64,000 bases of DNA from a virus (Duplodnaviria; Heunggongvirae; Uroviricota; Caudoviricetes), in the IMG/VR virus record IMGVR_UViG_2687453424_000001. The stretch is one strand, 5' to 3'. The notes below the pieces were generated by a model. That model saw only the letters and a program-made list of their open reading frames with translations, had not been told where the DNA came from and searched no databases. Made by a program: the position numbers and the translations under genes. The number at the start of each line of letters is the position of its first letter. Position 1 is the first letter of the stretch. Shown piece after piece: positions 1,739 through 35,500 of this stretch.

Positions 1739-1849
1739 CTGAACGTGTTTCATGAAACCTATGATCAGCTTTCTTTTGCTCTTGAAACATGGGGCAATAA
1801 TAATACAGAAGAAATTGGAGTGACAATCCTAGAGAGAAAGATCAGAAAC

Positions 1850-2898: not shown

Positions 2899-3401
2899 CT
2901 GCAAGATGACGGTTGTGCAGGCCACTTGCTTTGATTCCTCGACGAAACCGGCATGAAGTGAAGAAAAAAGTAATCGCTCCAATCCAGAATCGCTCCTTTC
3001 TCTACTCCCAAGCGACTGCCGTACCCTTCATAGGTACTTGGCTCGTTGGCATACCCTTGCTTCACTTCAAGCGGCAGGCTGAAGAATCGACGCCACACCT
3101 CTCGGATGCGCCTCATCAGCTCGTGGCTAACCCCATGGTTCACCGCCTGGAAGAAACCCCAGTCCCGGCACGTGCTGGAGATGCATCTCAAGGTCTCCTC
3201 CCGCAGGGCTAGGTCTTTCCCGAACAGGTTCTGGAGATCAACGACAGGAATGTCAACATGTTCTTCGATTTTGGAACATGTTTTCAGGCCAGGCCTGTCG
3301 GTTAGCGGCTTGATGTATCGCTCTGGAATGGCACGTATCCCACTGTCAGACAGAGACTGAACTCGAACCACCGGCTCAGGCCAACTCTGGAGACAATTCA
3401 T
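2899..3401 (-). CDS. 2-oxoglutarate/Fe(II)-dependent dioxygenase, JOX/JRG21-like; exon 1 of 3 (start codon at 3399-3401)
   Basis: Translation MNCLQSWPEPVVRVQSLSDSGIRAIPERYIKPLTDRP...IPVVDL...CRDWGFFQAVNHGVSHELM...YEGYGSRLGVEKGAILDWSDYFFLHF...KWPAQPSSC(R). This is the typical DIOX_N region and matches the Arabidopsis JOX/JRG21 (At3g55970 / At5g05600) N-terminus as I recall it. There is an in-frame TAG upstream of the ATG. Donor tcttgcag|gtctgc at 2898/2899. Confidence 0.85.
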
Positions 3402-3521
3402 TCTCTTCTTCTGTTTATATAATTTCAGGGTTTTCTTTCTTGAACAACCCAGACCCTAAAAACAAACGAAAAACCAGAAAAGGAGAAGGATAGAGAGTGT
3501 TAGAAGAAAGCAGAGCTTGTC

Positions 3522-10527: not shown

Positions 10528-10905
10528 GAAAAAAATTAGGTCAAAATACCTAAAAAGTCCCTATATTCATGTATTTTGTTCAATTTAATCCATGTACTCA
10601 AAATCGTAACATTTTTATCCTTTAATTTTGAAAATTGTTTCAATTTAGTCCCTCCTTCTAACTACATCTAATTTTACCTTTTAAATTAAAAGATGACATC
10701 AATAATGACATCAACGCTGACGTGACATATTTTGATGACGTGGTACCTTCACGATGACGTGGCATGACACGTGATACCGACATGATGACTGGGCAGTGCC
10801 ATCATTGGAACTAAATTTTGTGCTACGTCATAAGAATTAAATTGAATAAAAATATATAGTATAGAGACTAAATTGAACATAAATGAAATGTTGAGGGACT
10901 AAATT
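10528..10905. repeat. left arm of gap-spanning inverted repeat (TIR-like)
   Basis: The reverse complement of 14444-14819 aligns along this arm, e.g. ...gttgagggactaaatt here versus aatttagtccctcaac at 14444, and ttaggtcaaaatacctaaaaagtccc here versus gacttttcaagtattttgactaa near 14800. I estimate 75-80% identity by eye. Confidence 0.8.
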
Positions 10906-10943
10906 AAAAAATATTTAAAAAATAGTAAATCTTTAAGTAGATG

Positions 10944-13900
10944 NNNNNNNNNNNNNNNNNNNNNNNNNNNNNNNNNNNNNNNNNNNNNNNNNNNNNNNNN
11001 NNNNNNNNNNNNNNNNNNNNNNNNNNNNNNNNNNNNNNNNNNNNNNNNNNNNNNNNNNNNNNNNNNNNNNNNNNNNNNNNNNNNNNNNNNNNNNNNNNNN
11101 NNNNNNNNNNNNNNNNNNNNNNNNNNNNNNNNNNNNNNNNNNNNNNNNNNNNNNNNNNNNNNNNNNNNNNNNNNNNNNNNNNNNNNNNNNNNNNNNNNNN
11201 NNNNNNNNNNNNNNNNNNNNNNNNNNNNNNNNNNNNNNNNNNNNNNNNNNNNNNNNNNNNNNNNNNNNNNNNNNNNNNNNNNNNNNNNNNNNNNNNNNNN
11301 NNNNNNNNNNNNNNNNNNNNNNNNNNNNNNNNNNNNNNNNNNNNNNNNNNNNNNNNNNNNNNNNNNNNNNNNNNNNNNNNNNNNNNNNNNNNNNNNNNNN
11401 NNNNNNNNNNNNNNNNNNNNNNNNNNNNNNNNNNNNNNNNNNNNNNNNNNNNNNNNNNNNNNNNNNNNNNNNNNNNNNNNNNNNNNNNNNNNNNNNNNNN
11501 NNNNNNNNNNNNNNNNNNNNNNNNNNNNNNNNNNNNNNNNNNNNNNNNNNNNNNNNNNNNNNNNNNNNNNNNNNNNNNNNNNNNNNNNNNNNNNNNNNNN
11601 NNNNNNNNNNNNNNNNNNNNNNNNNNNNNNNNNNNNNNNNNNNNNNNNNNNNNNNNNNNNNNNNNNNNNNNNNNNNNNNNNNNNNNNNNNNNNNNNNNNN
11701 NNNNNNNNNNNNNNNNNNNNNNNNNNNNNNNNNNNNNNNNNNNNNNNNNNNNNNNNNNNNNNNNNNNNNNNNNNNNNNNNNNNNNNNNNNNNNNNNNNNN
11801 NNNNNNNNNNNNNNNNNNNNNNNNNNNNNNNNNNNNNNNNNNNNNNNNNNNNNNNNNNNNNNNNNNNNNNNNNNNNNNNNNNNNNNNNNNNNNNNNNNNN
11901 NNNNNNNNNNNNNNNNNNNNNNNNNNNNNNNNNNNNNNNNNNNNNNNNNNNNNNNNNNNNNNNNNNNNNNNNNNNNNNNNNNNNNNNNNNNNNNNNNNNN
12001 NNNNNNNNNNNNNNNNNNNNNNNNNNNNNNNNNNNNNNNNNNNNNNNNNNNNNNNNNNNNNNNNNNNNNNNNNNNNNNNNNNNNNNNNNNNNNNNNNNNN
12101 NNNNNNNNNNNNNNNNNNNNNNNNNNNNNNNNNNNNNNNNNNNNNNNNNNNNNNNNNNNNNNNNNNNNNNNNNNNNNNNNNNNNNNNNNNNNNNNNNNNN
12201 NNNNNNNNNNNNNNNNNNNNNNNNNNNNNNNNNNNNNNNNNNNNNNNNNNNNNNNNNNNNNNNNNNNNNNNNNNNNNNNNNNNNNNNNNNNNNNNNNNNN
12301 NNNNNNNNNNNNNNNNNNNNNNNNNNNNNNNNNNNNNNNNNNNNNNNNNNNNNNNNNNNNNNNNNNNNNNNNNNNNNNNNNNNNNNNNNNNNNNNNNNNN
12401 NNNNNNNNNNNNNNNNNNNNNNNNNNNNNNNNNNNNNNNNNNNNNNNNNNNNNNNNNNNNNNNNNNNNNNNNNNNNNNNNNNNNNNNNNNNNNNNNNNNN
12501 NNNNNNNNNNNNNNNNNNNNNNNNNNNNNNNNNNNNNNNNNNNNNNNNNNNNNNNNNNNNNNNNNNNNNNNNNNNNNNNNNNNNNNNNNNNNNNNNNNNN
12601 NNNNNNNNNNNNNNNNNNNNNNNNNNNNNNNNNNNNNNNNNNNNNNNNNNNNNNNNNNNNNNNNNNNNNNNNNNNNNNNNNNNNNNNNNNNNNNNNNNNN
12701 NNNNNNNNNNNNNNNNNNNNNNNNNNNNNNNNNNNNNNNNNNNNNNNNNNNNNNNNNNNNNNNNNNNNNNNNNNNNNNNNNNNNNNNNNNNNNNNNNNNN
12801 NNNNNNNNNNNNNNNNNNNNNNNNNNNNNNNNNNNNNNNNNNNNNNNNNNNNNNNNNNNNNNNNNNNNNNNNNNNNNNNNNNNNNNNNNNNNNNNNNNNN
12901 NNNNNNNNNNNNNNNNNNNNNNNNNNNNNNNNNNNNNNNNNNNNNNNNNNNNNNNNNNNNNNNNNNNNNNNNNNNNNNNNNNNNNNNNNNNNNNNNNNNN
13001 NNNNNNNNNNNNNNNNNNNNNNNNNNNNNNNNNNNNNNNNNNNNNNNNNNNNNNNNNNNNNNNNNNNNNNNNNNNNNNNNNNNNNNNNNNNNNNNNNNNN
13101 NNNNNNNNNNNNNNNNNNNNNNNNNNNNNNNNNNNNNNNNNNNNNNNNNNNNNNNNNNNNNNNNNNNNNNNNNNNNNNNNNNNNNNNNNNNNNNNNNNNN
13201 NNNNNNNNNNNNNNNNNNNNNNNNNNNNNNNNNNNNNNNNNNNNNNNNNNNNNNNNNNNNNNNNNNNNNNNNNNNNNNNNNNNNNNNNNNNNNNNNNNNN
13301 NNNNNNNNNNNNNNNNNNNNNNNNNNNNNNNNNNNNNNNNNNNNNNNNNNNNNNNNNNNNNNNNNNNNNNNNNNNNNNNNNNNNNNNNNNNNNNNNNNNN
13401 NNNNNNNNNNNNNNNNNNNNNNNNNNNNNNNNNNNNNNNNNNNNNNNNNNNNNNNNNNNNNNNNNNNNNNNNNNNNNNNNNNNNNNNNNNNNNNNNNNNN
13501 NNNNNNNNNNNNNNNNNNNNNNNNNNNNNNNNNNNNNNNNNNNNNNNNNNNNNNNNNNNNNNNNNNNNNNNNNNNNNNNNNNNNNNNNNNNNNNNNNNNN
13601 NNNNNNNNNNNNNNNNNNNNNNNNNNNNNNNNNNNNNNNNNNNNNNNNNNNNNNNNNNNNNNNNNNNNNNNNNNNNNNNNNNNNNNNNNNNNNNNNNNNN
13701 NNNNNNNNNNNNNNNNNNNNNNNNNNNNNNNNNNNNNNNNNNNNNNNNNNNNNNNNNNNNNNNNNNNNNNNNNNNNNNNNNNNNNNNNNNNNNNNNNNNN
13801 NNNNNNNNNNNNNNNNNNNNNNNNNNNNNNNNNNNNNNNNNNNNNNNNNNNNNNNNNNNNNNNNNNNNNNNNNNNNNNNNNNNNNNNNNNNNNNNNNNNN

Positions 13901-14443
13901 NNNNNNNNNNNNNNNNNNNNNNNNNNNNNNNNNNNNNNNNNNNNNNNNNNNNNNNNNNNNNNNNNNNNNNNNNNNNNNNNNNNNNNNNNNNNNNNNNNNN
14001 NNNNNNNNNNNNNNNNNNNNNNNNNNNNNNNNNNNNNNNNNNNNNNNNNNNNNNNNNNNNNNNNNNNNNNNNNNNNNNNNNNNNNNNNNNNNNNNNNNNN
14101 NNNNNNNNNNNNNNNNNNNNNNNNNNNNNNNNNNNNNNNNNNNNNNNNNNNNNNNNNNNNNNNNNNNNNNNNNNNNNNNNNNNNNNNNNNNNNNNNNNNN
14201 NNNNNNNNNNNNNNNNNNNNNNNNNNNNNNNNNNNNNNNNNNNNNNNNNNNNNNNNNNNNNNNNNNNNNNNNNNNNNNNNNNNNNNNNNNNNNNNNNNNN
14301 NNNNNNNNNNNNNNNNNNNNNNNNNNNNNNNNNNNNNNNNNNNNNNNNNNNNNNNNNNNNNNNNNNNNNNNNNNNNNNNNNNNNNNNNNNNNNNNNNNNN
14401 NNNNNNNNNNNNNNNNNNNNNNNNNNNNNNNNNNNNNNNNNNN
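10944..14443. other. assembly gap (N run, 3500 bp)
   Basis: Uninterrupted N. Confidence 1.
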
Positions 14444-14819
14444 AATTTAGTCCCTCAACATCTCAATTTTATTTAATTTAGTCTCTATATTATATATTTT
14501 TATTCAATCTACTCCTCATAATGTGACACAAAAAATTTTTTTGAAAATTTTTTGATTTGCCACGTTAGCACGTTGATGTCACGTCATCAAGTCGATGCCA
14601 CGTGACATACCACGTCATCAAAATATGTCGCATCAATGCTGATGTCACTATTGACATCATCTTTTTAACTGCAAAATTGGATGTTGTTAGAGAGAAAGAC
14701 TAAATTGAAGCAATTATTAAAATTAAAGGACTAAAATGTTACAATTTTGAGTATAAAGATTAAATTAAACAAAATGTATGGTACAAAGACTTTTCAAGTA
14801 TTTTGACTAAAAAATTAAG
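14444..14819. repeat. right arm of gap-spanning inverted repeat (TIR-like)
   Basis: Inverted copy of 10528-10905 (see that entry). Contains the mirrored cluster of acgtg/cacgtg/tgacgtg motifs. Confidence 0.8.
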
Positions 14820-16097: not shown

Positions 16098-17085
16098 TAT
16101 ATTACTATTTAAAGTAGGGACCGATAATCTGATCTAATTGATTAATTTGTTCGTACAATTATTCTCTTTTAAGAGTATGCATTGGAAATTAAAAATTCAT
16201 CAGACAATATAAATTTGACAATTTATTTTCGTTTTTAAGAATTTTTTGATAAATATCTCATCTTATACCGTATGTACCGAGCTCAAGACTCGAAATTCAA
16301 CTCATTGTATTCTTGCAATTGGATCTTGTAGCAAGCAAAGGAGTGGAACATTTTGCATTGCAAAGGGAAGTCCGACAGTAAAACAAAGCTCTTGGAGTAA
16401 AAGTCCAAAGAAGCTTGCAGACAAACAAAAAAGGAAACTCATGCAACGTACATGTACTACTATTTATAGTGTCATATATTCTTTTTTTTTTAAGAATATT
16501 TTACGATACAACAGTTAATTAAGAGAGACGAATTGTATCATTCACTTGAAAGATTTATTTGTTATTCTACAATGTTTTATTTTTCGGGTTTTTGTTATCT
16601 TTATGAATCTTAAGATTTAGACTCGATTTCTCTTGAAGATCATTATATGTTAATTGGTTTTTGAAGTAATAAACTCTATTAAATGTAAAGATGTAAACCT
16701 TTGACAAATGATAATCTAACTAATTAGGGAAAGAATAGGTATTAAAAGAAAAAGAAAAGCACAACACTGCACTGCACTGCTAATGTTTACTCTAGCTTCT
16801 ACATGTTAATCAATTACAAGAACAAGTCCAGACAAGACATATTTCTATATGTTACAAATTCAAAGCTCTCTCTTGTCAAAAGATAAGAGCATCGATTTTT
16901 TCTTTAATTTCTAATTAATATGAACATTAGTGAGTATTTTTGCTATTATTGTTTTACAATTTTTTCAACTCTCTTTTTTGACCTTTTAACATTCCTATAT
17001 CAATATGGTGGACTGAAAATTGGATGACCATGTGGTTGTATGATTGATTATTGTTTCGTTTACTTATAAATGTATGTGATGAAAA
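16098..17085. repeat. direct repeat copy A (about 1 kb), paired with 24200-25213
   Basis: Long collinear identity with copy B, about 93% by eye, running from attactatttaaagtag... to ...cgtttacttat(a/t)aatgt(a/g)t(g/a)tgatgaaa. Confidence 0.85.
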
Positions 17086-17733
17086 TAGGGTTCACGTGTA
17101 ATTCATTTTATTTCTAATTTTTAAGATTTTGCATTGATTTTGTGTCATGTCTTGAGTTTGATTTTGATTGCAATGTTGATTTTGATTGCAATGATCTCTA
17201 TGGTTTATATTGGGCTACACTTTGTATAGATATATGCGATCATATCATGAGTCTTATTCAAAAATAAAGTAGGAAAAGAATAAAAGGGTCTCATTCTTTC
17301 CTTGACTTCCTTGCATAGAACACTAAAATGATGCTAAAAACTGTCGATTTCCTTGTCCTTTTAACAAAATTATTTCAATGGGATTTCAATATCTCGAAAG
17401 CTGTGTGGCACATGAAGTTTCCTAATAGAAATTGGTGGGTTTTGATGCATCATTTTCGGAAGGTGAATGCTACGTCCTTTGTGCAAACTTTTTGACACTA
17501 CAAAAAAATTGAGTTTTAATCACACTTTTTTAGACGATATATTTTTTTGTATAATAAAATTTTAAAAAGTGTAGCTATTTAAACTTTTAACTTCACTTTT
17601 TTTACATTTAGTAGCAATATAAAAAAGTACAACCTTTGCTAATGTATGCAATTCCTATCGTTATATTTTATTCATAATGCATCTAAAAATTTATATAATG
17701 AGATTAGATATACAAAAATGTTCTAAAAAATAT

Positions 17734-20700
17734 NNNNNNNNNNNNNNNNNNNNNNNNNNNNNNNNNNNNNNNNNNNNNNNNNNNNNNNNNNNNNNNNNNN
17801 NNNNNNNNNNNNNNNNNNNNNNNNNNNNNNNNNNNNNNNNNNNNNNNNNNNNNNNNNNNNNNNNNNNNNNNNNNNNNNNNNNNNNNNNNNNNNNNNNNNN
17901 NNNNNNNNNNNNNNNNNNNNNNNNNNNNNNNNNNNNNNNNNNNNNNNNNNNNNNNNNNNNNNNNNNNNNNNNNNNNNNNNNNNNNNNNNNNNNNNNNNNN
18001 NNNNNNNNNNNNNNNNNNNNNNNNNNNNNNNNNNNNNNNNNNNNNNNNNNNNNNNNNNNNNNNNNNNNNNNNNNNNNNNNNNNNNNNNNNNNNNNNNNNN
18101 NNNNNNNNNNNNNNNNNNNNNNNNNNNNNNNNNNNNNNNNNNNNNNNNNNNNNNNNNNNNNNNNNNNNNNNNNNNNNNNNNNNNNNNNNNNNNNNNNNNN
18201 NNNNNNNNNNNNNNNNNNNNNNNNNNNNNNNNNNNNNNNNNNNNNNNNNNNNNNNNNNNNNNNNNNNNNNNNNNNNNNNNNNNNNNNNNNNNNNNNNNNN
18301 NNNNNNNNNNNNNNNNNNNNNNNNNNNNNNNNNNNNNNNNNNNNNNNNNNNNNNNNNNNNNNNNNNNNNNNNNNNNNNNNNNNNNNNNNNNNNNNNNNNN
18401 NNNNNNNNNNNNNNNNNNNNNNNNNNNNNNNNNNNNNNNNNNNNNNNNNNNNNNNNNNNNNNNNNNNNNNNNNNNNNNNNNNNNNNNNNNNNNNNNNNNN
18501 NNNNNNNNNNNNNNNNNNNNNNNNNNNNNNNNNNNNNNNNNNNNNNNNNNNNNNNNNNNNNNNNNNNNNNNNNNNNNNNNNNNNNNNNNNNNNNNNNNNN
18601 NNNNNNNNNNNNNNNNNNNNNNNNNNNNNNNNNNNNNNNNNNNNNNNNNNNNNNNNNNNNNNNNNNNNNNNNNNNNNNNNNNNNNNNNNNNNNNNNNNNN
18701 NNNNNNNNNNNNNNNNNNNNNNNNNNNNNNNNNNNNNNNNNNNNNNNNNNNNNNNNNNNNNNNNNNNNNNNNNNNNNNNNNNNNNNNNNNNNNNNNNNNN
18801 NNNNNNNNNNNNNNNNNNNNNNNNNNNNNNNNNNNNNNNNNNNNNNNNNNNNNNNNNNNNNNNNNNNNNNNNNNNNNNNNNNNNNNNNNNNNNNNNNNNN
18901 NNNNNNNNNNNNNNNNNNNNNNNNNNNNNNNNNNNNNNNNNNNNNNNNNNNNNNNNNNNNNNNNNNNNNNNNNNNNNNNNNNNNNNNNNNNNNNNNNNNN
19001 NNNNNNNNNNNNNNNNNNNNNNNNNNNNNNNNNNNNNNNNNNNNNNNNNNNNNNNNNNNNNNNNNNNNNNNNNNNNNNNNNNNNNNNNNNNNNNNNNNNN
19101 NNNNNNNNNNNNNNNNNNNNNNNNNNNNNNNNNNNNNNNNNNNNNNNNNNNNNNNNNNNNNNNNNNNNNNNNNNNNNNNNNNNNNNNNNNNNNNNNNNNN
19201 NNNNNNNNNNNNNNNNNNNNNNNNNNNNNNNNNNNNNNNNNNNNNNNNNNNNNNNNNNNNNNNNNNNNNNNNNNNNNNNNNNNNNNNNNNNNNNNNNNNN
19301 NNNNNNNNNNNNNNNNNNNNNNNNNNNNNNNNNNNNNNNNNNNNNNNNNNNNNNNNNNNNNNNNNNNNNNNNNNNNNNNNNNNNNNNNNNNNNNNNNNNN
19401 NNNNNNNNNNNNNNNNNNNNNNNNNNNNNNNNNNNNNNNNNNNNNNNNNNNNNNNNNNNNNNNNNNNNNNNNNNNNNNNNNNNNNNNNNNNNNNNNNNNN
19501 NNNNNNNNNNNNNNNNNNNNNNNNNNNNNNNNNNNNNNNNNNNNNNNNNNNNNNNNNNNNNNNNNNNNNNNNNNNNNNNNNNNNNNNNNNNNNNNNNNNN
19601 NNNNNNNNNNNNNNNNNNNNNNNNNNNNNNNNNNNNNNNNNNNNNNNNNNNNNNNNNNNNNNNNNNNNNNNNNNNNNNNNNNNNNNNNNNNNNNNNNNNN
19701 NNNNNNNNNNNNNNNNNNNNNNNNNNNNNNNNNNNNNNNNNNNNNNNNNNNNNNNNNNNNNNNNNNNNNNNNNNNNNNNNNNNNNNNNNNNNNNNNNNNN
19801 NNNNNNNNNNNNNNNNNNNNNNNNNNNNNNNNNNNNNNNNNNNNNNNNNNNNNNNNNNNNNNNNNNNNNNNNNNNNNNNNNNNNNNNNNNNNNNNNNNNN
19901 NNNNNNNNNNNNNNNNNNNNNNNNNNNNNNNNNNNNNNNNNNNNNNNNNNNNNNNNNNNNNNNNNNNNNNNNNNNNNNNNNNNNNNNNNNNNNNNNNNNN
20001 NNNNNNNNNNNNNNNNNNNNNNNNNNNNNNNNNNNNNNNNNNNNNNNNNNNNNNNNNNNNNNNNNNNNNNNNNNNNNNNNNNNNNNNNNNNNNNNNNNNN
20101 NNNNNNNNNNNNNNNNNNNNNNNNNNNNNNNNNNNNNNNNNNNNNNNNNNNNNNNNNNNNNNNNNNNNNNNNNNNNNNNNNNNNNNNNNNNNNNNNNNNN
20201 NNNNNNNNNNNNNNNNNNNNNNNNNNNNNNNNNNNNNNNNNNNNNNNNNNNNNNNNNNNNNNNNNNNNNNNNNNNNNNNNNNNNNNNNNNNNNNNNNNNN
20301 NNNNNNNNNNNNNNNNNNNNNNNNNNNNNNNNNNNNNNNNNNNNNNNNNNNNNNNNNNNNNNNNNNNNNNNNNNNNNNNNNNNNNNNNNNNNNNNNNNNN
20401 NNNNNNNNNNNNNNNNNNNNNNNNNNNNNNNNNNNNNNNNNNNNNNNNNNNNNNNNNNNNNNNNNNNNNNNNNNNNNNNNNNNNNNNNNNNNNNNNNNNN
20501 NNNNNNNNNNNNNNNNNNNNNNNNNNNNNNNNNNNNNNNNNNNNNNNNNNNNNNNNNNNNNNNNNNNNNNNNNNNNNNNNNNNNNNNNNNNNNNNNNNNN
20601 NNNNNNNNNNNNNNNNNNNNNNNNNNNNNNNNNNNNNNNNNNNNNNNNNNNNNNNNNNNNNNNNNNNNNNNNNNNNNNNNNNNNNNNNNNNNNNNNNNNN

Positions 20701-22537
20701 NNNNNNNNNNNNNNNNNNNNNNNNNNNNNNNNNNNNNNNNNNNNNNNNNNNNNNNNNNNNNNNNNNNNNNNNNNNNNNNNNNNNNNNNNNNNNNNNNNNN
20801 NNNNNNNNNNNNNNNNNNNNNNNNNNNNNNNNNNNNNNNNNNNNNNNNNNNNNNNNNNNNNNNNNNNNNNNNNNNNNNNNNNNNNNNNNNNNNNNNNNNN
20901 NNNNNNNNNNNNNNNNNNNNNNNNNNNNNNNNNNNNNNNNNNNNNNNNNNNNNNNNNNNNNNNNNNNNNNNNNNNNNNNNNNNNNNNNNNNNNNNNNNNN
21001 NNNNNNNNNNNNNNNNNNNNNNNNNNNNNNNNNNNNNNNNNNNNNNNNNNNNNNNNNNNNNNNNNNNNNNNNNNNNNNNNNNNNNNNNNNNNNNNNNNNN
21101 NNNNNNNNNNNNNNNNNNNNNNNNNNNNNNNNNNNNNNNNNNNNNNNNNNNNNNNNNNNNNNNNNNNNNNNNNNNNNNNNNNNNNNNNNNNNNNNNNNNN
21201 NNNNNNNNNNNNNNNNNNNNNNNNNNNNNNNNNNNNNNNNNNNNNNNNNNNNNNNNNNNNNNNNNNNNNNNNNNNNNNNNNNNNNNNNNNNNNNNNNNNN
21301 NNNNNNNNNNNNNNNNNNNNNNNNNNNNNNNNNNNNNNNNNNNNNNNNNNNNNNNNNNNNNNNNNNNNNNNNNNNNNNNNNNNNNNNNNNNNNNNNNNNN
21401 NNNNNNNNNNNNNNNNNNNNNNNNNNNNNNNNNNNNNNNNNNNNNNNNNNNNNNNNNNNNNNNNNNNNNNNNNNNNNNNNNNNNNNNNNNNNNNNNNNNN
21501 NNNNNNNNNNNNNNNNNNNNNNNNNNNNNNNNNNNNNNNNNNNNNNNNNNNNNNNNNNNNNNNNNNNNNNNNNNNNNNNNNNNNNNNNNNNNNNNNNNNN
21601 NNNNNNNNNNNNNNNNNNNNNNNNNNNNNNNNNNNNNNNNNNNNNNNNNNNNNNNNNNNNNNNNNNNNNNNNNNNNNNNNNNNNNNNNNNNNNNNNNNNN
21701 NNNNNNNNNNNNNNNNNNNNNNNNNNNNNNNNNNNNNNNNNNNNNNNNNNNNNNNNNNNNNNNNNNNNNNNNNNNNNNNNNNNNNNNNNNNNNNNNNNNN
21801 NNNNNNNNNNNNNNNNNNNNNNNNNNNNNNNNNNNNNNNNNNNNNNNNNNNNNNNNNNNNNNNNNNNNNNNNNNNNNNNNNNNNNNNNNNNNNNNNNNNN
21901 NNNNNNNNNNNNNNNNNNNNNNNNNNNNNNNNNNNNNNNNNNNNNNNNNNNNNNNNNNNNNNNNNNNNNNNNNNNNNNNNNNNNNNNNNNNNNNNNNNNN
22001 NNNNNNNNNNNNNNNNNNNNNNNNNNNNNNNNNNNNNNNNNNNNNNNNNNNNNNNNNNNNNNNNNNNNNNNNNNNNNNNNNNNNNNNNNNNNNNNNNNNN
22101 NNNNNNNNNNNNNNNNNNNNNNNNNNNNNNNNNNNNNNNNNNNNNNNNNNNNNNNNNNNNNNNNNNNNNNNNNNNNNNNNNNNNNNNNNNNNNNNNNNNN
22201 NNNNNNNNNNNNNNNNNNNNNNNNNNNNNNNNNNNNNNNNNNNNNNNNNNNNNNNNNNNNNNNNNNNNNNNNNNNNNNNNNNNNNNNNNNNNNNNNNNNN
22301 NNNNNNNNNNNNNNNNNNNNNNNNNNNNNNNNNNNNNNNNNNNNNNNNNNNNNNNNNNNNNNNNNNNNNNNNNNNNNNNNNNNNNNNNNNNNNNNNNNNN
22401 NNNNNNNNNNNNNNNNNNNNNNNNNNNNNNNNNNNNNNNNNNNNNNNNNNNNNNNNNNNNNNNNNNNNNNNNNNNNNNNNNNNNNNNNNNNNNNNNNNNN
22501 NNNNNNNNNNNNNNNNNNNNNNNNNNNNNNNNNNNNN
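17734..22537. other. assembly gap (N run, 4804 bp)
   Basis: Uninterrupted N. Confidence 1.
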
Positions 22538-23039
22538 GAGTTCTTTTTTTAAATGGATTCCATGCATAAGGTGTTTTTGACTATAAGCTTTTTTATAATT
22601 TGAACTGTTTTTTACCAAGAGAATTAAAATTTGGACAAAATTACCTTTAATGAAATCGACCCATTTATTTGGCTCCTCACCTTAACCCAAAACCTATTAA
22701 TGGGTCAAGTATGTTTAAGTTTGCGTCTCAAGCCGACTCATATTCTTTAAGCTTTTCTTGCCAAACTATTCATTTCTAGAGTATTCTTTACTAAAAAAAA
22801 AAGTTTAAGCATTTTGAGCATTTTACAGCAGTTTTTGATACACAAAGAAAATCTGTGAGTGTTTTGAGTATTTTTAAGCATTTTGGAGTAATTTTTAGTA
22901 TATGAAGAAAAACTTTTGAACATTTTGAGCATTATTTGTCAAGTAGGCATATTCGTTAATTATGTTATTAAATAGAATATGGTGTAACGTTTAAAGTTAT
23001 TGATCTTATTAAATGGAATGCAGTAGTTTTGATGATTTT

Positions 23040-23365
23040 TAGAATTACGTGATTAGTTTTTAGGTATTGCGTGACTAACTTTAGATATTGCATAACTGAC
23101 TTTGGGTATTGCGTGACTAGTTTTTGATATGACATTGCGTAATTAGTGTTTGACAAAGCATTACGAGACTAGTTGATAGACATTACGTGACTAGTTAATA
23201 AGGCGTTGCATGACTAGTTAGTAAGGCATTGTGTGACTAAGGCATTATTTAAAAATTAGTCACGTAATACCTAAAACTAATTACGTAATACCTAAAAATC
23301 AATCACGCAGTGATTAAATCACATAATGTCTAAAAATCGGTCTCGCAGTACTTAAAAATCAGTCT
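23040..23365. repeat. palindromic minisatellite array (about 22-bp unit, core attgcgtgactagtt)
   Basis: About nine forward units (attacgtgattagttttt, attgcgtgactaacttt, attgcgtgactagttttt, attacgtgactagttaat, ...) up to about 23245, then about four reverse-complement units (ttagtcacgtaatacctaaaa, taattacgtaatacctaaaa, ...) after a centre near 23250. Confidence 0.8.
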
Positions 23366-24199
23366 AATCAATTTCAACTCCTTAACTTTGGGCTTTTATG
23401 AATAAACTAATAAACTCAATAACCTAAAATACATATTTTTTTTTGCTAAGCCATGAAATTATGCATTTCATAAAAGATAAGTTACAAAACTCCATAATCC
23501 TCCAAAGCAAGACAAAATAAATCCCTATCATGAGGGCCTTGCTCACTCTCCTTATGCAAAAACAAAATATACTCATTTACAAAATATTTCTTGAACAATT
23601 TAAATTCAAAATTTTACAAAAAAAATCAAAATCCCTAGCAAGCATGCTTAACAATCATCTCAATATCAGACACAACAAAACTGTAAACCACCATAAAACC
23701 CATCAAACATACTTTAGCTATTTCTTTTCCCTGAGCCCATCACCTTAACCAATCTAATCCAACTCATCAACATAGGCATCTCCATTGCAGCACACGTTTC
23801 GAAGCAAGTCATCACCAGAAAGCATCCAATTACCAAATTCATTATGCTGCCTGCAATCACCATAGAAGAGCAAAATCGCTGTTCATCGTCATTGAAAACC
23901 CCAAGATTCATCATCTAAAAAAATAAAACAAAATAAGAAAGAGCTTGATGTCATCTTTGGATGGCGAGATAGACAGTATTTGACCAGAAAGAGAAATCAA
24001 AATTTAATTTTAAAATTTTTGTTTGCATGGCGGGATAGAGAAAACTGAAATCATTTTAACTTGTCTAAAATTGTTTAAAAAGTATTGTTGTCAACTCATG
24101 TCAAAAATTGATTAAAAATAATTAAAATTATAAAAAATAATATTTTTGAATTGAGCTTAAAAAGAAAGTTATTTTTCACAATTTTCTCTCTAAATATAA

Positions 24200-25213
24200 A
24201 ATATTACTATTTAAAGTAGAGACTGATAATCCAATCTAATTGATTAATTTGTTTGTTCAATTATTCCCTTTTAAGAGTATGCATTGGAAATTAATAATTC
24301 GTCAGACAATATAAATTGGACAATTTATTTTTATTTTTTAGAATTTTTCGATAAATATCTCATCTTATACCATATGTACTGAGCGCAAGACTCGAAATTC
24401 AACTTATTGTATTCTTGCAGTGGGAGCTTGTAGCAAGCAAAGGAGTGAAACATTTTGCATTGCAAAGGGAAGTCCGATACTAAAACAAAGCTCTTGGAGT
24501 AAAAGTCCCATACCCTTCCATAGTCGTCCTTCACGCACCCCATCCCCAATGAATTTTGCAGACAAACAAAAAAGGAAACTCATACAACGTACGTGTACCA
24601 CTATTTATAGTGTCATATATACTTTTTTAATTTTGTTAGGATACAACAGCTAATTAAAAGAGATGAATTTTATGATTCACTTGAAAGATTTACTTGTCAT
24701 TCTATAATGTTTTATCTTTTGGGTTTTTGTTATCTTTATGAATCGTAAGACTTAGACTCGATTTCTCTTGAAGATCATTATATGTTAATTGGTTTTTGAA
24801 GTAATAACTCTATTAAATGTAAAGATGTAAACCTTTGAAAAATGATAATCTAACTAATTAGGGAAAGGATAGGAATTAAAAGAAAAGGAAAAAGAAAAGC
24901 ACTGCACTGCTATTGTTTACTCTAGCTTCTACATGTTAATCAATTACAAGAACATGGCCAGACAGGACATATTTCTACATGTTACAAATTCAAAGCTCTC
25001 TCTTGTCAAAAGATGAGAGCATCGATTTTTTCTTTAATTTCTAATTAATATGAACATTAGTGAGTATTTTTGCTATTATTGTTTTACAATTTTTTCAACT
25101 CTCTTTTTTGACCTTTTAACATTTCTATATCAATATGGTGGACTGAAAATTGGATGACCACGTGGTTGTATGATTGATTCTTGTTTCGTTTACTTATTAA
25201 TGTGTATGATGAA
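24200..25213. repeat. direct repeat copy B (about 1 kb), paired with 16098-17085
   Basis: Same sequence family as copy A. Carries an extra insertion of about 45 bp (catacccttccatagtcgtccttcacgcaccccatccccaatgaat) relative to A. Confidence 0.85.
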
Positions 25214-27900
25214 AGTTGAAATGACCCAAGGTTAATCAAATCAAAATGAAGTGATTTGCTTGGAAAACAAATTGCTAAATTTCTTCATGAATCATGATAG
25301 CAACCTAGCATGATTAATGTTGCCATTCAAACCATATATGGAATGGGACGACTTTCTCAGTCCAGAAAAAACGCAGTTTTCATACTAATTAGCTTTGAGT
25401 GTCCATTTGTGGAGCATGTTTTTCTGCAGCTGATCTTAATAGAGCCAAAGCCAAAGACACCAAGAAGGCCCTTGGTCCCCCAATGAACCAGGGCTCGGGG
25501 GAGGTCCAGTGTGGAAATGTGTTGGAATTGTGTGGAAGTGTGAACTCCTGGAAATACTTTTGTTCTTTTTTTTATTATATATATATAGCCAATTATTTCG
25601 TTTCTGCTGCGACAATGTTTTCCAGGAGAACCATGTGTGCTTGTCACTGGCCCCTGTAAGAGTCTCTTTATGGCCCTTTGGAAAAGCATTGCCTCGTGAT
25701 GTTGGACGAAGATAAAGAACTTTTTCTGAAAGGGAAATGGGGTGCAAAAAAGTCGTGAGTGCATGTGAACAAGTTATACAAGTAACCACTAACACTAATC
25801 TAGATCGATGACGATGAGTTAAGAATTATACAAGAGCATTTCAATCTTTTCGCCTTCTTAGTGCTTTTGAGTTTTGACCCTTTTCTCTCTTTTTTTTTGG
25901 TTGCTAAAAGTTGCTGTTGAGTATGCATGTTTATCTGAATTCCGCATTGAAAATCTTGGTATTTTGCTCCAAGGAATTCGTCTCAAGCCTCTTACAATTG
26001 AAGAGTTAAAGCAAACCAACCAAATCCCACTACACCTTATCCAAAATTTTTTACTGTGTAAACAATATGAGTTGCTTTCAATGATTGACCCGTAAACCAT
26101 TGACGTATCTCGGGTGTTAGTAGGCAATAGCCCCTGAAACTTGACTGAAGATAAACTAATTATAATTTGTCGTGGTTGTAATTAAAGCAATGATAAAGAA
26201 ATTCCAAGATGTGTAAATATTCATCTCATTGATTTTATATGATATTAGAACAGATGTTATCTCTATTCATTATTTCTTTTACAAACTCTTTTTATAGTTT
26301 ATATCATATGATAAATCCGTGTTACAAAATTAATTATGAACGAAGAAGCCTTGTTGGTTTCTATTGATCTCATGCAGAATCCCGCTGGTTACTCAAAGTA
26401 TTTCAAGTAGAAATTGATGCAAAAGGACCTTCATAGCCAGCAGCAAGGTGGCGACTGTGACTAATGGTATTTGTTTTGAAGAGAGAATTTCGGCAAGTCA
26501 GGACAGATTTGGCTCCTTCGATGTTGCTTGCAGTGCATGATAAAGACTTGAGAGGCACAACCTTTATATTCTTTTTGCGGCCTAACAAAAGACTTTGAAG
26601 CATCTATGCAAATTACGAACAAAGCGTGAGGAGGAAAGATCTGCGTTTGTTCTGCTTGTCTCAACAAACTCCCATCCCTTTCCGCTTCTTTTGTACATTG
26701 GATTGCGCATGCCTCGAGACGACGTAATATCTTGGCTACAGTACAAGGAAGAAGATTCGAAGTGCTATTATTTTCTGCCCACATAGCTGGGTCAACATGT
26801 CAACGGTGAAAGCAGATCAGAAGAGAGAATCAAAGAAAAATGCTGGATGGCTTTGGCTTTTGGGTTTTACTGATTTCAGAAGCATCATCTTCATCTAGCG
26901 ATGCACCAATAATTGTCACATGTACAAAGTCATCAACATTCACAGCAAGGCAATCAAGTTTGAACCGAGAACTGATTGCAAGTTAGACCTTCCTTATGCC
27001 TGCCGTAGGCTAGAAAGATTCGGACAGAATTAACAGTTATATTTAACCTGCCGCTGAATCAACATTGAACCTGCCTACACACAAGAATCTACCTCTGTCG
27101 AAAACTCTATCGACGCTAACGGAACAGTGGGCAAAAATCCACCTTCCAAGCTAATCTTGGGTTAGATAGATATGGTCAGAACTCTGAATAACGATCAAGC
27201 TTGCCCCAAGACCGACGCAAGAGTTAATCTTGGGCTGCAAAAACAGTCAGAATAATGATCAGCCAGCGCCCATCACCAACACAAGAATTAAGCACTGTCG
27301 GCTGTCGCTGACTTTTCGAAACCTATGGTCCAGTGGACTACTAAACAGTCTATACTGAAGCTTTATTCGACAATGGGCTGCAATCTGCCTTCCGAGCCGA
27401 TCATGGACTGGAAAGGTGCGGCCAGAGCCTCCCAAGTGTGACGGCTGTAACGCAATTGGCAAGTGCTGAAATGACCCTACAAAGTGCCAGACATGTCCAA
27501 GCATGCCGATGTAAACTTCTATTTGGAACCCCAAACGCAAGAGGCAAGAGACCATATTTTCTTTAGACAAGAATATATTAAGCACTACACAATTCAATCC
27601 CATGCTGTCAACCAGAAACAATAATCAAAAAAGGTTGGTAGTGGTAAGAGAGAATCATACACGCCTAACTCTATGGCCACAAGGTGTTTTCCACGATTAA
27701 CATTAGCAGAGACAAACAAGATGAACTTGGCCCCTCCATAATTCCTTGTAAAACCACCAGGCAAAAAAGACCCCATTCAATGCAAAGAGCCCTCCTCCGC
27801 AAATAATCACAAGAGAAAGCAAAGTCCAAAGATATACAAGGAATGATTCGGTACTTTTTCTTGCAAGGATGAACAAAACAAAGAACTGGTATGATGATGC

Positions 27901-31932: not shown

Positions 31933-32548
31933 CTGGCTTGAAAAATATTGATAACCCAAAATCGATAGCTTTTAACGGCGAATTCTCTTTCTTATTAGCG
32001 AACAAAAAATTCTCAGGCTTCAAATCTCTATGAATCACTCCATGCTTATGACAAAGCTGAACCACTTCCACAATCGTCCTCGTCACCGCCGCGGCGGCTC
32101 TCTCCGTGTAATGTCCTCTGGCCACGATCCTATCGAAGAGTTCACCACCTTCACAAAGCTCCATCACCAAATGAACCGCATTGTCATCCTCGCAAGCTTC
32201 TTTCAAGCTCACGATACTCGAATTCTTCGGCAAATGCTTCATTATCGCAACTTCCCGTCTCACATCCTCGATATCCACGGCCGTCCTCAGCTTCCTCTTC
32301 GAGATAGACTTGCACGCGAGCAACTCGCGCGTGCCGCGGTCGATGCAAAGGTAAGTAACCCCGAACTCACCTCGTCCCAGCTCGCGATCCACCAGGTACT
32401 TCTCCTCGATGTTCTCCTTCGGAACCCCGTTCAGCACCGTGATCGGCGGCTTCTGCTTGGAAACGGAATCTTTACGGGCGTGATCGTGTGCGGAGAAGTT
32501 CGATTTTACGTCCTCCCTCGCGACAGCCGCTGGAGATCTACAACAATT
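31933..32548 (-). CDS. CPK13: calcium-dependent protein kinase (CPK13-like); exon 1 of 7, 5'-truncated by the adjacent gap (MG of MGNCC is inside the N run)
   Basis: Translation [68 protein letters not shown]...[33 protein letters not shown](G). This has the Ser/Thr kinase catalytic motifs ([11 protein letters not shown]) and closely matches the Arabidopsis CPK13 N-terminus [17 protein letters not shown] as I recall it. Donor AAGCCAG|gtaaat at 31932/31933. Confidence 0.9.
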
Positions 32549-35500
32549 NNNNNNNNNNNNNNNNNNNNNNNNNNNNNNNNNNNNNNNNNNNNNNNNNNNN
32601 NNNNNNNNNNNNNNNNNNNNNNNNNNNNNNNNNNNNNNNNNNNNNNNNNNNNNNNNNNNNNNNNNNNNNNNNNNNNNNNNNNNNNNNNNNNNNNNNNNNN
32701 NNNNNNNNNNNNNNNNNNNNNNNNNNNNNNNNNNNNNNNNNNNNNNNNNNNNNNNNNNNNNNNNNNNNNNNNNNNNNNNNNNNNNNNNNNNNNNNNNNNN
32801 NNNNNNNNNNNNNNNNNNNNNNNNNNNNNNNNNNNNNNNNNNNNNNNNNNNNNNNNNNNNNNNNNNNNNNNNNNNNNNNNNNNNNNNNNNNNNNNNNNNN
32901 NNNNNNNNNNNNNNNNNNNNNNNNNNNNNNNNNNNNNNNNNNNNNNNNNNNNNNNNNNNNNNNNNNNNNNNNNNNNNNNNNNNNNNNNNNNNNNNNNNNN
33001 NNNNNNNNNNNNNNNNNNNNNNNNNNNNNNNNNNNNNNNNNNNNNNNNNNNNNNNNNNNNNNNNNNNNNNNNNNNNNNNNNNNNNNNNNNNNNNNNNNNN
33101 NNNNNNNNNNNNNNNNNNNNNNNNNNNNNNNNNNNNNNNNNNNNNNNNNNNNNNNNNNNNNNNNNNNNNNNNNNNNNNNNNNNNNNNNNNNNNNNNNNNN
33201 NNNNNNNNNNNNNNNNNNNNNNNNNNNNNNNNNNNNNNNNNNNNNNNNNNNNNNNNNNNNNNNNNNNNNNNNNNNNNNNNNNNNNNNNNNNNNNNNNNNN
33301 NNNNNNNNNNNNNNNNNNNNNNNNNNNNNNNNNNNNNNNNNNNNNNNNNNNNNNNNNNNNNNNNNNNNNNNNNNNNNNNNNNNNNNNNNNNNNNNNNNNN
33401 NNNNNNNNNNNNNNNNNNNNNNNNNNNNNNNNNNNNNNNNNNNNNNNNNNNNNNNNNNNNNNNNNNNNNNNNNNNNNNNNNNNNNNNNNNNNNNNNNNNN
33501 NNNNNNNNNNNNNNNNNNNNNNNNNNNNNNNNNNNNNNNNNNNNNNNNNNNNNNNNNNNNNNNNNNNNNNNNNNNNNNNNNNNNNNNNNNNNNNNNNNNN
33601 NNNNNNNNNNNNNNNNNNNNNNNNNNNNNNNNNNNNNNNNNNNNNNNNNNNNNNNNNNNNNNNNNNNNNNNNNNNNNNNNNNNNNNNNNNNNNNNNNNNN
33701 NNNNNNNNNNNNNNNNNNNNNNNNNNNNNNNNNNNNNNNNNNNNNNNNNNNNNNNNNNNNNNNNNNNNNNNNNNNNNNNNNNNNNNNNNNNNNNNNNNNN
33801 NNNNNNNNNNNNNNNNNNNNNNNNNNNNNNNNNNNNNNNNNNNNNNNNNNNNNNNNNNNNNNNNNNNNNNNNNNNNNNNNNNNNNNNNNNNNNNNNNNNN
33901 NNNNNNNNNNNNNNNNNNNNNNNNNNNNNNNNNNNNNNNNNNNNNNNNNNNNNNNNNNNNNNNNNNNNNNNNNNNNNNNNNNNNNNNNNNNNNNNNNNNN
34001 NNNNNNNNNNNNNNNNNNNNNNNNNNNNNNNNNNNNNNNNNNNNNNNNNNNNNNNNNNNNNNNNNNNNNNNNNNNNNNNNNNNNNNNNNNNNNNNNNNNN
34101 NNNNNNNNNNNNNNNNNNNNNNNNNNNNNNNNNNNNNNNNNNNNNNNNNNNNNNNNNNNNNNNNNNNNNNNNNNNNNNNNNNNNNNNNNNNNNNNNNNNN
34201 NNNNNNNNNNNNNNNNNNNNNNNNNNNNNNNNNNNNNNNNNNNNNNNNNNNNNNNNNNNNNNNNNNNNNNNNNNNNNNNNNNNNNNNNNNNNNNNNNNNN
34301 NNNNNNNNNNNNNNNNNNNNNNNNNNNNNNNNNNNNNNNNNNNNNNNNNNNNNNNNNNNNNNNNNNNNNNNNNNNNNNNNNNNNNNNNNNNNNNNNNNNN
34401 NNNNNNNNNNNNNNNNNNNNNNNNNNNNNNNNNNNNNNNNNNNNNNNNNNNNNNNNNNNNNNNNNNNNNNNNNNNNNNNNNNNNNNNNNNNNNNNNNNNN
34501 NNNNNNNNNNNNNNNNNNNNNNNNNNNNNNNNNNNNNNNNNNNNNNNNNNNNNNNNNNNNNNNNNNNNNNNNNNNNNNNNNNNNNNNNNNNNNNNNNNNN
34601 NNNNNNNNNNNNNNNNNNNNNNNNNNNNNNNNNNNNNNNNNNNNNNNNNNNNNNNNNNNNNNNNNNNNNNNNNNNNNNNNNNNNNNNNNNNNNNNNNNNN
34701 NNNNNNNNNNNNNNNNNNNNNNNNNNNNNNNNNNNNNNNNNNNNNNNNNNNNNNNNNNNNNNNNNNNNNNNNNNNNNNNNNNNNNNNNNNNNNNNNNNNN
34801 NNNNNNNNNNNNNNNNNNNNNNNNNNNNNNNNNNNNNNNNNNNNNNNNNNNNNNNNNNNNNNNNNNNNNNNNNNNNNNNNNNNNNNNNNNNNNNNNNNNN
34901 NNNNNNNNNNNNNNNNNNNNNNNNNNNNNNNNNNNNNNNNNNNNNNNNNNNNNNNNNNNNNNNNNNNNNNNNNNNNNNNNNNNNNNNNNNNNNNNNNNNN
35001 NNNNNNNNNNNNNNNNNNNNNNNNNNNNNNNNNNNNNNNNNNNNNNNNNNNNNNNNNNNNNNNNNNNNNNNNNNNNNNNNNNNNNNNNNNNNNNNNNNNN
35101 NNNNNNNNNNNNNNNNNNNNNNNNNNNNNNNNNNNNNNNNNNNNNNNNNNNNNNNNNNNNNNNNNNNNNNNNNNNNNNNNNNNNNNNNNNNNNNNNNNNN
35201 NNNNNNNNNNNNNNNNNNNNNNNNNNNNNNNNNNNNNNNNNNNNNNNNNNNNNNNNNNNNNNNNNNNNNNNNNNNNNNNNNNNNNNNNNNNNNNNNNNNN
35301 NNNNNNNNNNNNNNNNNNNNNNNNNNNNNNNNNNNNNNNNNNNNNNNNNNNNNNNNNNNNNNNNNNNNNNNNNNNNNNNNNNNNNNNNNNNNNNNNNNNN
35401 NNNNNNNNNNNNNNNNNNNNNNNNNNNNNNNNNNNNNNNNNNNNNNNNNNNNNNNNNNNNNNNNNNNNNNNNNNNNNNNNNNNNNNNNNNNNNNNNNNNN

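What the first reader, a model, noticed from the sequence alone, without database searches (positions are those of the whole stretch)
23040..23365. Palindromic minisatellite: forward 22-bp units followed by their reverse complements
About nine units with core attgcgtgactag are followed, after a centre near 23250, by about four units of the reverse complement (ctagtcacgtaat...). Such an array could fold into a long hairpin. It lies inside the putative element bounded by the 1-kb direct repeats, and may be a subterminal repeat region of a transposon or a hairpin-RNA / small-RNA-producing locus.
Basis: seen in the sequence. Interest (0 to 1): 0.45.

Follow-up and report, generated by a model that had tools for sequence, protein, structure and literature searches.

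The report
Degenerate head-to-head 22-bp repeat array
A 350-base non-coding stretch of a plant genome really does carry about nine copies of a 22-base unit followed by about five copies in the opposite orientation. It looks like a decaying leftover of a DNA-transposon end or foldback element, and that is an ordinary thing to find.

Summary
Nine forward units (core ATTRCGTGACTAG, period 21-26 bp) lie at 23040-23249. Five reverse-complement units lie at 23251-23353, with a doubtful sixth ending at 23375. The core is confined to this spot in the window. The reverse units are significantly similar to the forward ones: R1 matches F2 at 19 of 21 positions, and the best inverted block matches in 48 of 55 columns. 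The strand folds far better than shuffled sequence (z -6.8 as DNA, -8 as RNA).

The window is plant nuclear DNA, 44% of it masked as N. The array is intergenic and non-coding, with no Rfam or Pfam match. It lies 500 bp from a 4.8-kb masked block.

The 1-kb direct repeats around it lack every LTR hallmark I could check. I found no terminal inverted repeat plus target-site duplication around the array. There is no mirrored copy on the other side of the masked block, and no second copy in any collection I could reach.

My best reading, at moderate confidence, is a decayed relic of a class II transposon: a cluster of transposase-binding subterminal or foldback repeats. The main rival is a local minisatellite that underwent an inverted duplication. 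A hairpin-RNA locus is neither shown nor excluded. Interest is low.

The parts
23040..23249 (+). Forward array of nine units, F1-F9. Each unit is a 4-nt prefix, the 13-nt core ATTRCGTGACTAG and a T-rich spacer. F1-F4 have a 21-bp period and spacer TTTTTAGGT. F5-F9 have a 22-26-bp period and spacer TTRATAAGGC.
23018..23039 (+). Possible very degenerate unit F0. Its TGATGATTTTT part belongs to the left inverted arm.
   Evidence: weak
23241..23250 (.). The point where orientation switches (GGCATTATTT). F9 and R1 form a 17-nt, 82% complementary inverted pair (23224-23240 / 23256-23272) separated by 15 nt; this part covers the left portion of that 15-nt gap (23241-23255).
   Evidence: (I11)
23251..23353 (-). 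Reverse array R1-R5. On the + strand each unit begins with AAAAA. R1 and R2 are well conserved. R3-R5 are degenerate, and R4 carries a deletion of about 6 nt.
23354..23375 (-). Doubtful sixth reverse unit R6. It keeps the AAAAA phase, but its core is at chance level (11/21 or fewer).
23030..23082 (+). Left arm of the best-supported inverted block (F1-F2). It pairs with 23252-23305.
   Evidence: 48 of 55 columns; score 69 against a shuffle maximum of 38; dominant anti-diagonal centred at 23167
23252..23305 (-). Right arm of the best-supported inverted block (R1-R2 and the start of R3).
22804..23019 (+). Unrelated short tandem repeats directly upstream of the array: a 60-bp unit x 2.2 at 22804-22935 and a 41-bp unit x 2 at 22955-23019. 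With the array they make 22800-23375 a composite repeat zone.
   Evidence: (D6, D7, D9)
16099..17085 (+). Left copy of the 1-kb direct repeat. It is context only and is not shown to be part of the same element.
24201..25213 (+). Right copy of the 1-kb direct repeat (91% identical). It has an extra 39-bp GC-rich insert at about 24508-24546.
17734..22537 (.). A 4804-bp run of N (masked). Its content is unknown. It lies 500 bp upstream of the array.

Best explanation
The array is a decayed, non-coding relic of a class II (cut-and-paste) transposon end, or of a small foldback-type non-autonomous element.

It is a cluster of copies of one 13-bp protein-binding motif, ATTRCGTGACTAG. The copies are spaced two helical turns apart (21-23 bp) and sit in head-to-head orientation. 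This is the arrangement of the subterminal repeats that transposases of CACTA, hAT, Mutator, P/Galileo and Foldback elements bind in order to bring the two ends together.

Shown: the units, their two orientations, their phasing, the inverted F1-F2 / R2-R1 block, the lack of coding capacity, and the single occurrence in the window.

Inferred: that the motif was a transposase-binding site; that the two orientations are the two ends of an element whose interior was lost, or the internally repetitive arms of a foldback element; and that it is now immobile and drifting. On this reading the ability to fold is a by-product of the inverted arrangement.
For: (1) Closely spaced direct and inverted copies of a short motif over a few hundred bp is the defining anatomy of transposon subterminal regions (PMC8978399; Galileo and Foldback TIRs, PMC3688188 abstract). 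This array has that anatomy.
(2) The outer units F1-F2 and R2-R1 form a 53-bp inverted pair (48 of 55 columns) enclosing seven forward units. That is a TIR-with-internal-array layout.
(3) The region is non-coding: only short ORFs without Pfam hits and no RNA family.
(4) It sits in a transposon-rich intergenic stretch. A long-TIR element lies at 10542-14810. A perfect CACTA-type 13-mer, CACTACAAAAAAA, lies at 17496 and is the only perfect copy in the window. Other tandem repeats abut the array.
(5) The outer units are the most degenerate, and 4 of 14 units have lost the core CpG through CG>CA or CG>TG transitions. Both fit neutral decay.
Against: No canonical TIR (at least 10 of 12 nt) plus TSD pair exists around the array. 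The only TSD-like flank is 7 of 9 (GCAGTAGTT / GCAGTGATT), which is not significant once the number of trials is counted.

Reverse units R3-R5 lie outside the best inverted block, so the 'complete small element' reading is untidy.

No mirrored array exists left of the masked block. No inverted repeat links the two flanks of that block. The CACTA-like 13-mer has no inverted partner.

No second copy of the family was found anywhere I could search: the window, the metagenome pattern scan (where the only arrays are unrelated), an ORF-proxy protein search, and plasmid and phage collections. The source genome itself could not be searched, so copy number, the key criterion for mobility, is unknown.

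CpG observed/expected is higher in the array (1.33) than in its flanks (0.36-0.54). That is not what heavy long-term methylation of an old transposon predicts.
Confidence: 0.45

Rival explanations
1. A locally born minisatellite, never mobile. A 21-23-bp unit expanded by replication slippage or unequal exchange. Part of it, the F1-F2 dimer, was later copied in inverted orientation by fork template-switching or fold-back repair. The whole array has drifted since.
For: It occurs once in the window and no relatives were found. No TIR/TSD pair surrounds it. Inverted symmetry does not extend beyond the array. The array has two sub-types with different periods, as expected from stepwise local expansion. 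The block similarities are not collinear: F1-F2 pairs with R2-R1 and F6-F7 pairs with R5-R4, and these pairings cross. That points to several rearrangement events, not one clean pair of ends. Unrelated minisatellites abut it.
Against: Arrays carrying both orientations of a motif with an ACGT core at two-turn spacing are far more typical of transposon ends than of ordinary minisatellites. That is a prior from my own knowledge of plant repeats and was not tested here. The surroundings are transposon-rich.
Confidence: 0.3
2. The hypervariable 3' untranslated region of an LTR retrotransposon. The 1-kb direct repeats would be the LTRs, the masked 4.8 kb would be gag-pol, and the array would be one of the tandem repeats that some plant Ty3/gypsy lineages carry between pol and the 3' LTR.
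For: The geometry fits: 1-kb repeat, 650 bp, 4.8 kb masked, 1.66 kb holding three different tandem-repeat families, then a 1-kb repeat. From memory, Macas et al. 2009 (Gene 448:198) described such 3'-UTR arrays in Ogre-type elements. I did not check that paper here.
Against: The repeats start with ATATTAC and end with GATGAAA. They have no TG..CA ends in either orientation. No primer-binding site follows the left repeat. No polypurine tract abuts the right repeat. The 5-bp flanks differ (ATTTT against GTTGA).
Confidence: 0.08
3. A functional hairpin-RNA locus. A transcript through the array folds back on itself and is diced into small RNAs, as at a young MIR-like or hpRNA locus. This could coexist with a transposon origin.
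For: The folding energy is far below shuffled sequence: RNA -103 kcal/mol (z -8.0) and DNA -50 kcal/mol (z -6.8). The minimum-energy fold contains a nearly continuous stem of about 27 bp between F4 and R1.
Against: The arms are only 73-87% complementary and unequal, 9 units against 5. Pairing has several competing registers, and the centroid structure keeps only part of the minimum-energy fold. The two best block pairings cross and cannot coexist in one hairpin. No Rfam family matches at E up to 1. I have no evidence of transcription.
Confidence: 0.07
4. A cis-regulatory cluster of host transcription-factor sites, for example for bZIP-type factors that recognise ACGT cores. It would act on a neighbouring gene.
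For: The ACGT/GCGT core is the best-kept part of the unit, and CpG is retained (observed/expected 1.33 against 0.36-0.54 in the flanks). The sites fall on the same helical face.
Against: The nearest visible gene, the CDPK, ends about 2 kb away and points toward the array with its 3' end. The units drift freely outside the core, and the outer units drift inside it too. There is no conservation data.
Confidence: 0.05

Closest known systems
Subterminal repeat regions (subTIRs) of CACTA (En/Spm-type) transposons
   Same: Several hundred bp of closely spaced direct and inverted copies of a 10-20-bp motif (PMC8978399). Non-coding. Other tandem arrays lie next to it. A perfect CACTACAAAAAAA 13-mer lies 5.5 kb upstream, on the far side of the masked block.
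   Different: No TAGTG terminus or inverted partner of that 13-mer lies to the right of the array. No 3-bp target-site duplication is visible. The region after the 13-mer (17496-17733) does not carry the array's motif.
Foldback-type elements and MITEs with internally repetitive arms (Drosophila FB and Galileo; plant FARE and SoFT, the last two cited from memory)
   Same: Inverted arms built from tandem sub-repeats, no coding capacity and a small size of about 280-350 bp. In Galileo the repeated arms hold multiple transposase (THAP) binding sites (PMC3688188).
   Different: The arms here are short and unequal. The units between them are all forward. The flanking duplication is at best 7 of 9. 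Multi-copy status is unknown.
Tandem repeats in the 3' UTR of plant LTR retrotransposons (Ogre/Tat type; cited from memory)
   Same: The array lies between a 4.8-kb central block and a downstream 1-kb direct repeat, and several unrelated arrays sit side by side.
   Different: The flanking 1-kb repeats fail every LTR test available. Such arrays are normally in one orientation only.
Inverted-duplication hairpin loci (young MIR genes, hpRNA loci)
   Same: An inverted repeat whose transcript would fold (z -8).
   Different: Low and register-ambiguous complementarity, no Rfam match, and no expression data.

Membership tests
CACTA transposon (subterminal region) | Terminal inverted repeats CACTA...TAGTG at the element ends | tested here: not met
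   One perfect CACTACAAAAAAA lies at 17496 (+). No inverted partner with 3 or fewer mismatches lies between the array and the right 1-kb repeat. The only TAGTG there (23144) is inside unit F5 and has no TIR context.
CACTA transposon (subterminal region) | Mirrored subterminal repeat zones with the same motif at both ends | tested here: not met
   Every hit on the array's motif (2 or fewer mismatches) outside 23044-23289 is an isolated hit far away. None lies in 17086-17733. That region has a different motif, CACTTTTTT. The masked part could not be seen.
CACTA transposon (subterminal region) | 3-bp target-site duplication | tested here: not met
   The flank of the 17496 13-mer is TGA. No matching end was found.
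CACTA transposon (subterminal region) | Internal transposase gene (Transposase_21/24 type) | not testable with these tools
   17734-22537 is N.
Foldback element / MITE with repetitive arms | Inverted terminal arms made of tandem sub-repeats | tested here: met
   23030-23082 against 23252-23305: 48 of 55 columns, score 69 against a shuffle maximum of 38. Each arm is two 21-bp units.
Foldback element / MITE with repetitive arms | Target-site duplication directly flanking the arms | tested here: inconclusive
   A systematic scan found no TIR (10 of 12 or better) plus TSD pair. The best candidate is GCAGTAGTT / GCAGTGATT (7 of 9), offset by 1 nt from each arm. It is not significant after multiple testing.
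Foldback element / MITE with repetitive arms | Many dispersed copies in the genome | not testable with these tools
   The source genome is not in any searchable collection. There is one copy in the 36 kb of readable window. Proxy searches were negative.
Foldback element / MITE with repetitive arms | No coding capacity | tested here: met
   The longest ORF is 62 aa, an artefact of the 21-bp period. It has no Pfam hit.
LTR retrotransposon | LTRs ending in TG...CA, with a PBS after the 5' LTR, a PPT before the 3' LTR and a 5-bp TSD | tested here: not met
   The repeat ends are ATATTAC...GATGAAA. The next bases after the left repeat are ATAGGGTTCACG, which is no tRNA-complementary site. There is no adjacent purine tract. 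The flanks are ATTTT against GTTGA.
Known RNA families including plant MIR families (Rfam 15) | Match to a covariance model | tested here: not met
   The only match at E up to 1 in 22538-25300 is a sub-threshold RT-6 hit at 24078-24124, outside the array.
Small-RNA-producing hairpin locus | Small-RNA reads mapping to both arms | not testable with these tools
   No expression data are available.
Plasmid or phage iteron origin | Iterons next to a rep gene, in a prokaryotic or episomal context | tested here: not met
   The window is plant nuclear DNA with intron-containing CDPK and 2OG-oxygenase genes. blastn found no match in plasmid or phage collections.

The most novel reading that the evidence does not exclude
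The array is the only visible member of an undescribed foldback-type transposon family in a poorly sampled eudicot lineage. Its transcript forms a hairpin that feeds small-RNA silencing of the family. The relatively well-kept CpG-containing core would then reflect continued protein binding, not drift.
Probability: 0.08. Interest if true: 0.3.

Novelty: new member of a known kind. Interest (0 to 1): 0.14.

Why it matters
It matters little beyond annotation. If the transposon reading is right, the 13-bp core is a candidate transposase-binding site, and the array could seed a repeat-library entry for an under-sampled plant genome. If it is a local minisatellite, it is a possible polymorphic marker. 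Nothing here bears on an open biological question.

Tried and rejected
(1) LTR retrotransposon bounded by the 1-kb repeats. Rejected: no TG..CA ends, PBS, PPT or TSD in either orientation.

(2) A class II element spanning the masked block. The best inverted alignment between the two flanks is low-complexity and no better than shuffles (38 against a mean of 33 and a maximum of 42).

(3) A CACTA element starting at 17496. No partner terminus exists, and the subterminal motif differs.

(4) Extension of the palindrome beyond the array. Not significant (81 against a mean of 73; 50 of 300 shuffles score at least as high). The 22-nt pair 22990-23011 / 23408-23429 (I8) is therefore treated as chance.

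(5) A 30-nt AT-rich inverted pair, 22589-22618 / 24107-24137 (score 35 against a shuffle maximum of 32). Noted, but it is low-complexity and has no convincing TSD.

(6) A TIR plus TSD scan around the array. It gave zero candidates.

(7) A metagenome scan for two adjacent units. It returned 14 loci. Only L009, L011 and L014 hold arrays. Their units differ (20, 26 and 24 bp), and they lie in unrelated eukaryote-like contigs that contain simple repeats. I judge these to be chance sharers of the ACGTGAC core.

(8) Using the 62-aa ORF created by the 21-bp period as a proxy to find other copies among 5.8 billion predicted proteins. No candidate was found. Exact look-ups of four local ORFs found nothing on record.

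(9) Species identification. The JOX-like exon is 100% identical to a protein on Logan run DRR396126, whose 1617-nt contig is 99.9% identical to the window. The best named relatives are Salix and Populus at about 70%.

(10) Plasmid and phage blastn, Rfam and Pfam. All were negative.

(11) Reading the masks as exact transposon boundaries. Rejected, because mask 32549-37313 starts two codons into the CDPK coding sequence.

Full report
CONTEXT

The window is plant (eudicot) nuclear DNA. It carries an intron-containing JOX-like 2-oxoglutarate oxygenase gene on the minus strand at 1490-3401. It also carries a calcium-dependent protein kinase (CDPK) gene on the minus strand from about 28000 to beyond 32548.

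One exon is 100% identical to a protein from Logan run DRR396126, and that contig is 99.9% identical to the window over 1617 nt. The nearest named relatives are Salix and Populus at about 70% identity, so the species is not a well-sampled one. No paper mentions the run.

Seven runs of N cover 44% of the window. They are not exact feature boundaries: the one starting at 32549 begins two codons into the CDPK coding sequence. The finding lies in an AT-rich, non-coding interval (23-32% GC). It is 500 bp downstream of the masked block 17734-22537 and 840 bp upstream of the right copy of a 1-kb direct repeat.

Nine forward units have cores at 23044, 23066, 23087, 23108, 23134, 23160, 23182, 23205 and 23228, with 0-4 mismatches to ATTRCGTGACTAG. 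TRF reports the same array with periods of 21, 22, 23 and 26 bp.

From 23251 the units run in reverse complement. On the plus strand each begins with an A4-5 tract, and tracts of four or more A start at 23251, 23273, 23294, 23332 and 23354; R4, at 23316, begins with only AAA. R1 and R2 are clear family members: R1 matches F2 at 19/21 and R2 matches F1 at 17/21. R3, R4 and R5 are degenerate at 14-16/21. A sixth unit, R6, is at chance level (11/21 or fewer). Random local 21-mers share 6.1 +/- 2.2 positions.

The motif with up to 2 mismatches occurs 14 times in the window against 4.0 expected. No shuffle out of 100 reaches 14, and 10 of the 14 hits are in the array. The best inverted local alignment is 23030-23082 against 23252-23305, with 48 of 55 columns matching. 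It scores 69, against a mean of 27 and a maximum of 38 in 200 shuffles.

The 341-nt strand folds at -50 kcal/mol as DNA (z -6.8) and -103 kcal/mol as RNA (z -8.0). No shuffle out of 100 folds as well.

FINE STRUCTURE

There are two sub-types. F1-F4 and all reverse units have a 21-22-bp period and spacer TTTTTAGGT. F5-F9 have a 22-26-bp period and spacer TTRATAAGGC.

The orientation switches at about 23250, but the dominant mirror axis is at 23167, because F1-F2 matches R2-R1 best. A weaker block, F6-F7 against R5-R4 (35 nt, 74%, I4), crosses the first pairing. The two cannot both form in one hairpin. This points to a history of several duplications, not one clean palindrome.

Inverted symmetry does not extend beyond the array. 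The arms are unequal. The minimum-energy fold uses F4:R1 and F1-F2:R2-R3, and the centroid structure keeps only part of that. So 'a long hairpin' overstates it. What forms is an imperfect stem of about 90 nt, with several competing registers, around a loop of about 125 nt.

The core CpG is intact in 10 of 14 units, and the four losses are all CG>CA or CG>TG transitions. CpG observed/expected is 1.33 in the array against 0.36-0.54 in the flanks.

SURROUNDINGS

The 1-kb direct repeats (16099-17085 and 24201-25213, 91% identical) are not LTRs by any criterion I could test. Their ends are ATATTAC...GATGAAA. There is no primer-binding site, no adjacent polypurine tract, and the 5-bp flanks differ.

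The two flanks of the masked block share no inverted repeat above background.

A perfect CACTA-type 13-mer, CACTACAAAAAAA, lies at 17496 and is the only perfect copy in the window. My own rough composition-based estimate is that about 0.005 such matches are expected in the readable sequence. But it has no inverted partner. The 240 bp after it carry a different short motif, CACTTTTTT, in both orientations, and not the array's motif.

Directly upstream of the array lie two unrelated short tandem repeats, a 60-bp unit x 2.2 and a 41-bp unit x 2.

The interval has no ORF longer than 72 aa. The 62-aa ORF across F1-F5 is an artefact of the 21-bp period, which reads as LVTQYLK repeats. None of the ORFs has a Pfam hit. 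No Rfam family matches at E up to 1 within the array.

RELATIVES ELSEWHERE

None were found. The source genome is not in any searchable collection.

A metagenome scan for two adjacent units returned 14 loci, a number my own rough estimate would put near chance for a pattern of about 20 specified bases. Three of them (L009, L011, L014) hold arrays that share the ACGTGAC core. Their units are 20, 26 and 24 bp, and they sit in unrelated eukaryote-like contigs that contain simple repeats.

A protein-level proxy search with the array's ORF found no candidate among 5.8 billion sequences. Exact look-ups of four local ORFs found nothing on record. Plasmid and phage collections gave no match.

INTERPRETATION

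The anatomy is many copies of one short motif, in phase with the helix, in both orientations, over about 350 non-coding bp, inside a repeat-rich and transposon-rich interval. That is the anatomy of the transposase-binding subterminal regions of class II transposons. [quoted passage not shown] It is also the anatomy of the internally repetitive arms of foldback-type elements such as Galileo (PMC3688188).

I therefore favour a decayed transposon-end or foldback relic, at confidence 0.45. The claim is limited by three things: the failed TIR/TSD tests, the missing mirrored end, and the unknown copy number.

The main rival, at 0.30, is a locally expanded minisatellite that underwent an inverted duplication. 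It explains the single occurrence and the non-collinear block similarities equally well.

The LTR-retrotransposon 3'-UTR reading (0.08) fails the LTR tests. A functional hairpin-RNA locus (0.07) and a host transcription-factor site cluster (0.05) are neither supported nor excluded.

VERDICT

Its interpretation is partly supported: the transposon-like anatomy holds, but the 'element bounded by 1-kb repeats' does not hold as an LTR element, and the small-RNA idea could not be tested. This is an ordinary kind of plant repeat. At most it is a new member of a known kind, and interest is low.

Noticed in passing
window 10542-10943 and 14444-14810: Inverted arms of about 370 bp flank the masked block 10944-14443 (81-86% complementary). 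The arms carry TTTAGTCCCT-type motifs and several TGACGTGRCA / GACGTGACA motifs. This looks like a Mutator-like or foldback long-TIR element. Its motifs share the ACGTGAC heptamer with the array.
   Followed up: partly
window 17496-17508: A perfect CACTA-type terminal 13-mer, CACTACAAAAAAA, the only perfect copy in the window. It is followed by direct and inverted CACTTTTTT motifs. No inverted partner terminus was found.
   Followed up: partly
window 16099-17085 and 24201-25213: 1-kb direct repeats, 91% identical, that lack LTR hallmarks. The right copy has an extra 39-bp GC-rich insert at about 24508-24546. Their origin (segmental duplication, or two copies of an unknown element) is unresolved.
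   Followed up: partly
window 32414-32548 (minus strand): The CDPK N-terminus reads [11 protein letters not shown]... right up to the edge of the N run. The mask therefore starts about two codons into the coding sequence (MG missing). The masks are not aligned to gene or transposon boundaries.
   Followed up: yes
window 63265-63592: A 164-bp unit repeated twice in tandem (87% identical, TRF score 516). It is the strongest tandem repeat in the readable part of the window.
   Followed up: no
window 22589-22618 and 24107-24137: A 30-nt AT-rich inverted pair (24 of 30; score 35 against a shuffle maximum of 32) brackets a 1.55-kb segment that contains the array. It could be weak TIRs or low-complexity coincidence. 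No convincing target-site duplication was seen.
   Followed up: partly
window 22804-23019: Two further short tandem repeats abut the array: a 60-bp unit x 2.2 (TTTAAGCATTTTGAGCATTTTACAGCAG...) and a 41-bp unit x 2 (GTTATTGATCTTATTAAATGGAAT...).
   Followed up: partly
L011 2001-2240; L009 1300-1730; L014 1095-1320 (metagenome contigs): Unrelated eukaryote-like contigs hold arrays of 26-, 20- and 24-bp units that contain the same (T)TRCGTGAC(TA) core. In L011, eight forward units with the exact 13-mer ATTGCGTGACTAG are followed by one inverted unit, which echoes the layout in the window. I judged this to be chance selection by the search pattern.
   Followed up: partly
window 1846-3462 vs L015; window 2897-3453 vs L016: A Logan contig from run DRR396126 is 99.9% identical to the window, so it is the same species. 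An ENA metagenome-assembly contig is 87.5% identical, so it is a related species. No named close relative exists in the protein collection; the best are Salix and Populus at about 70%.
   Followed up: yes
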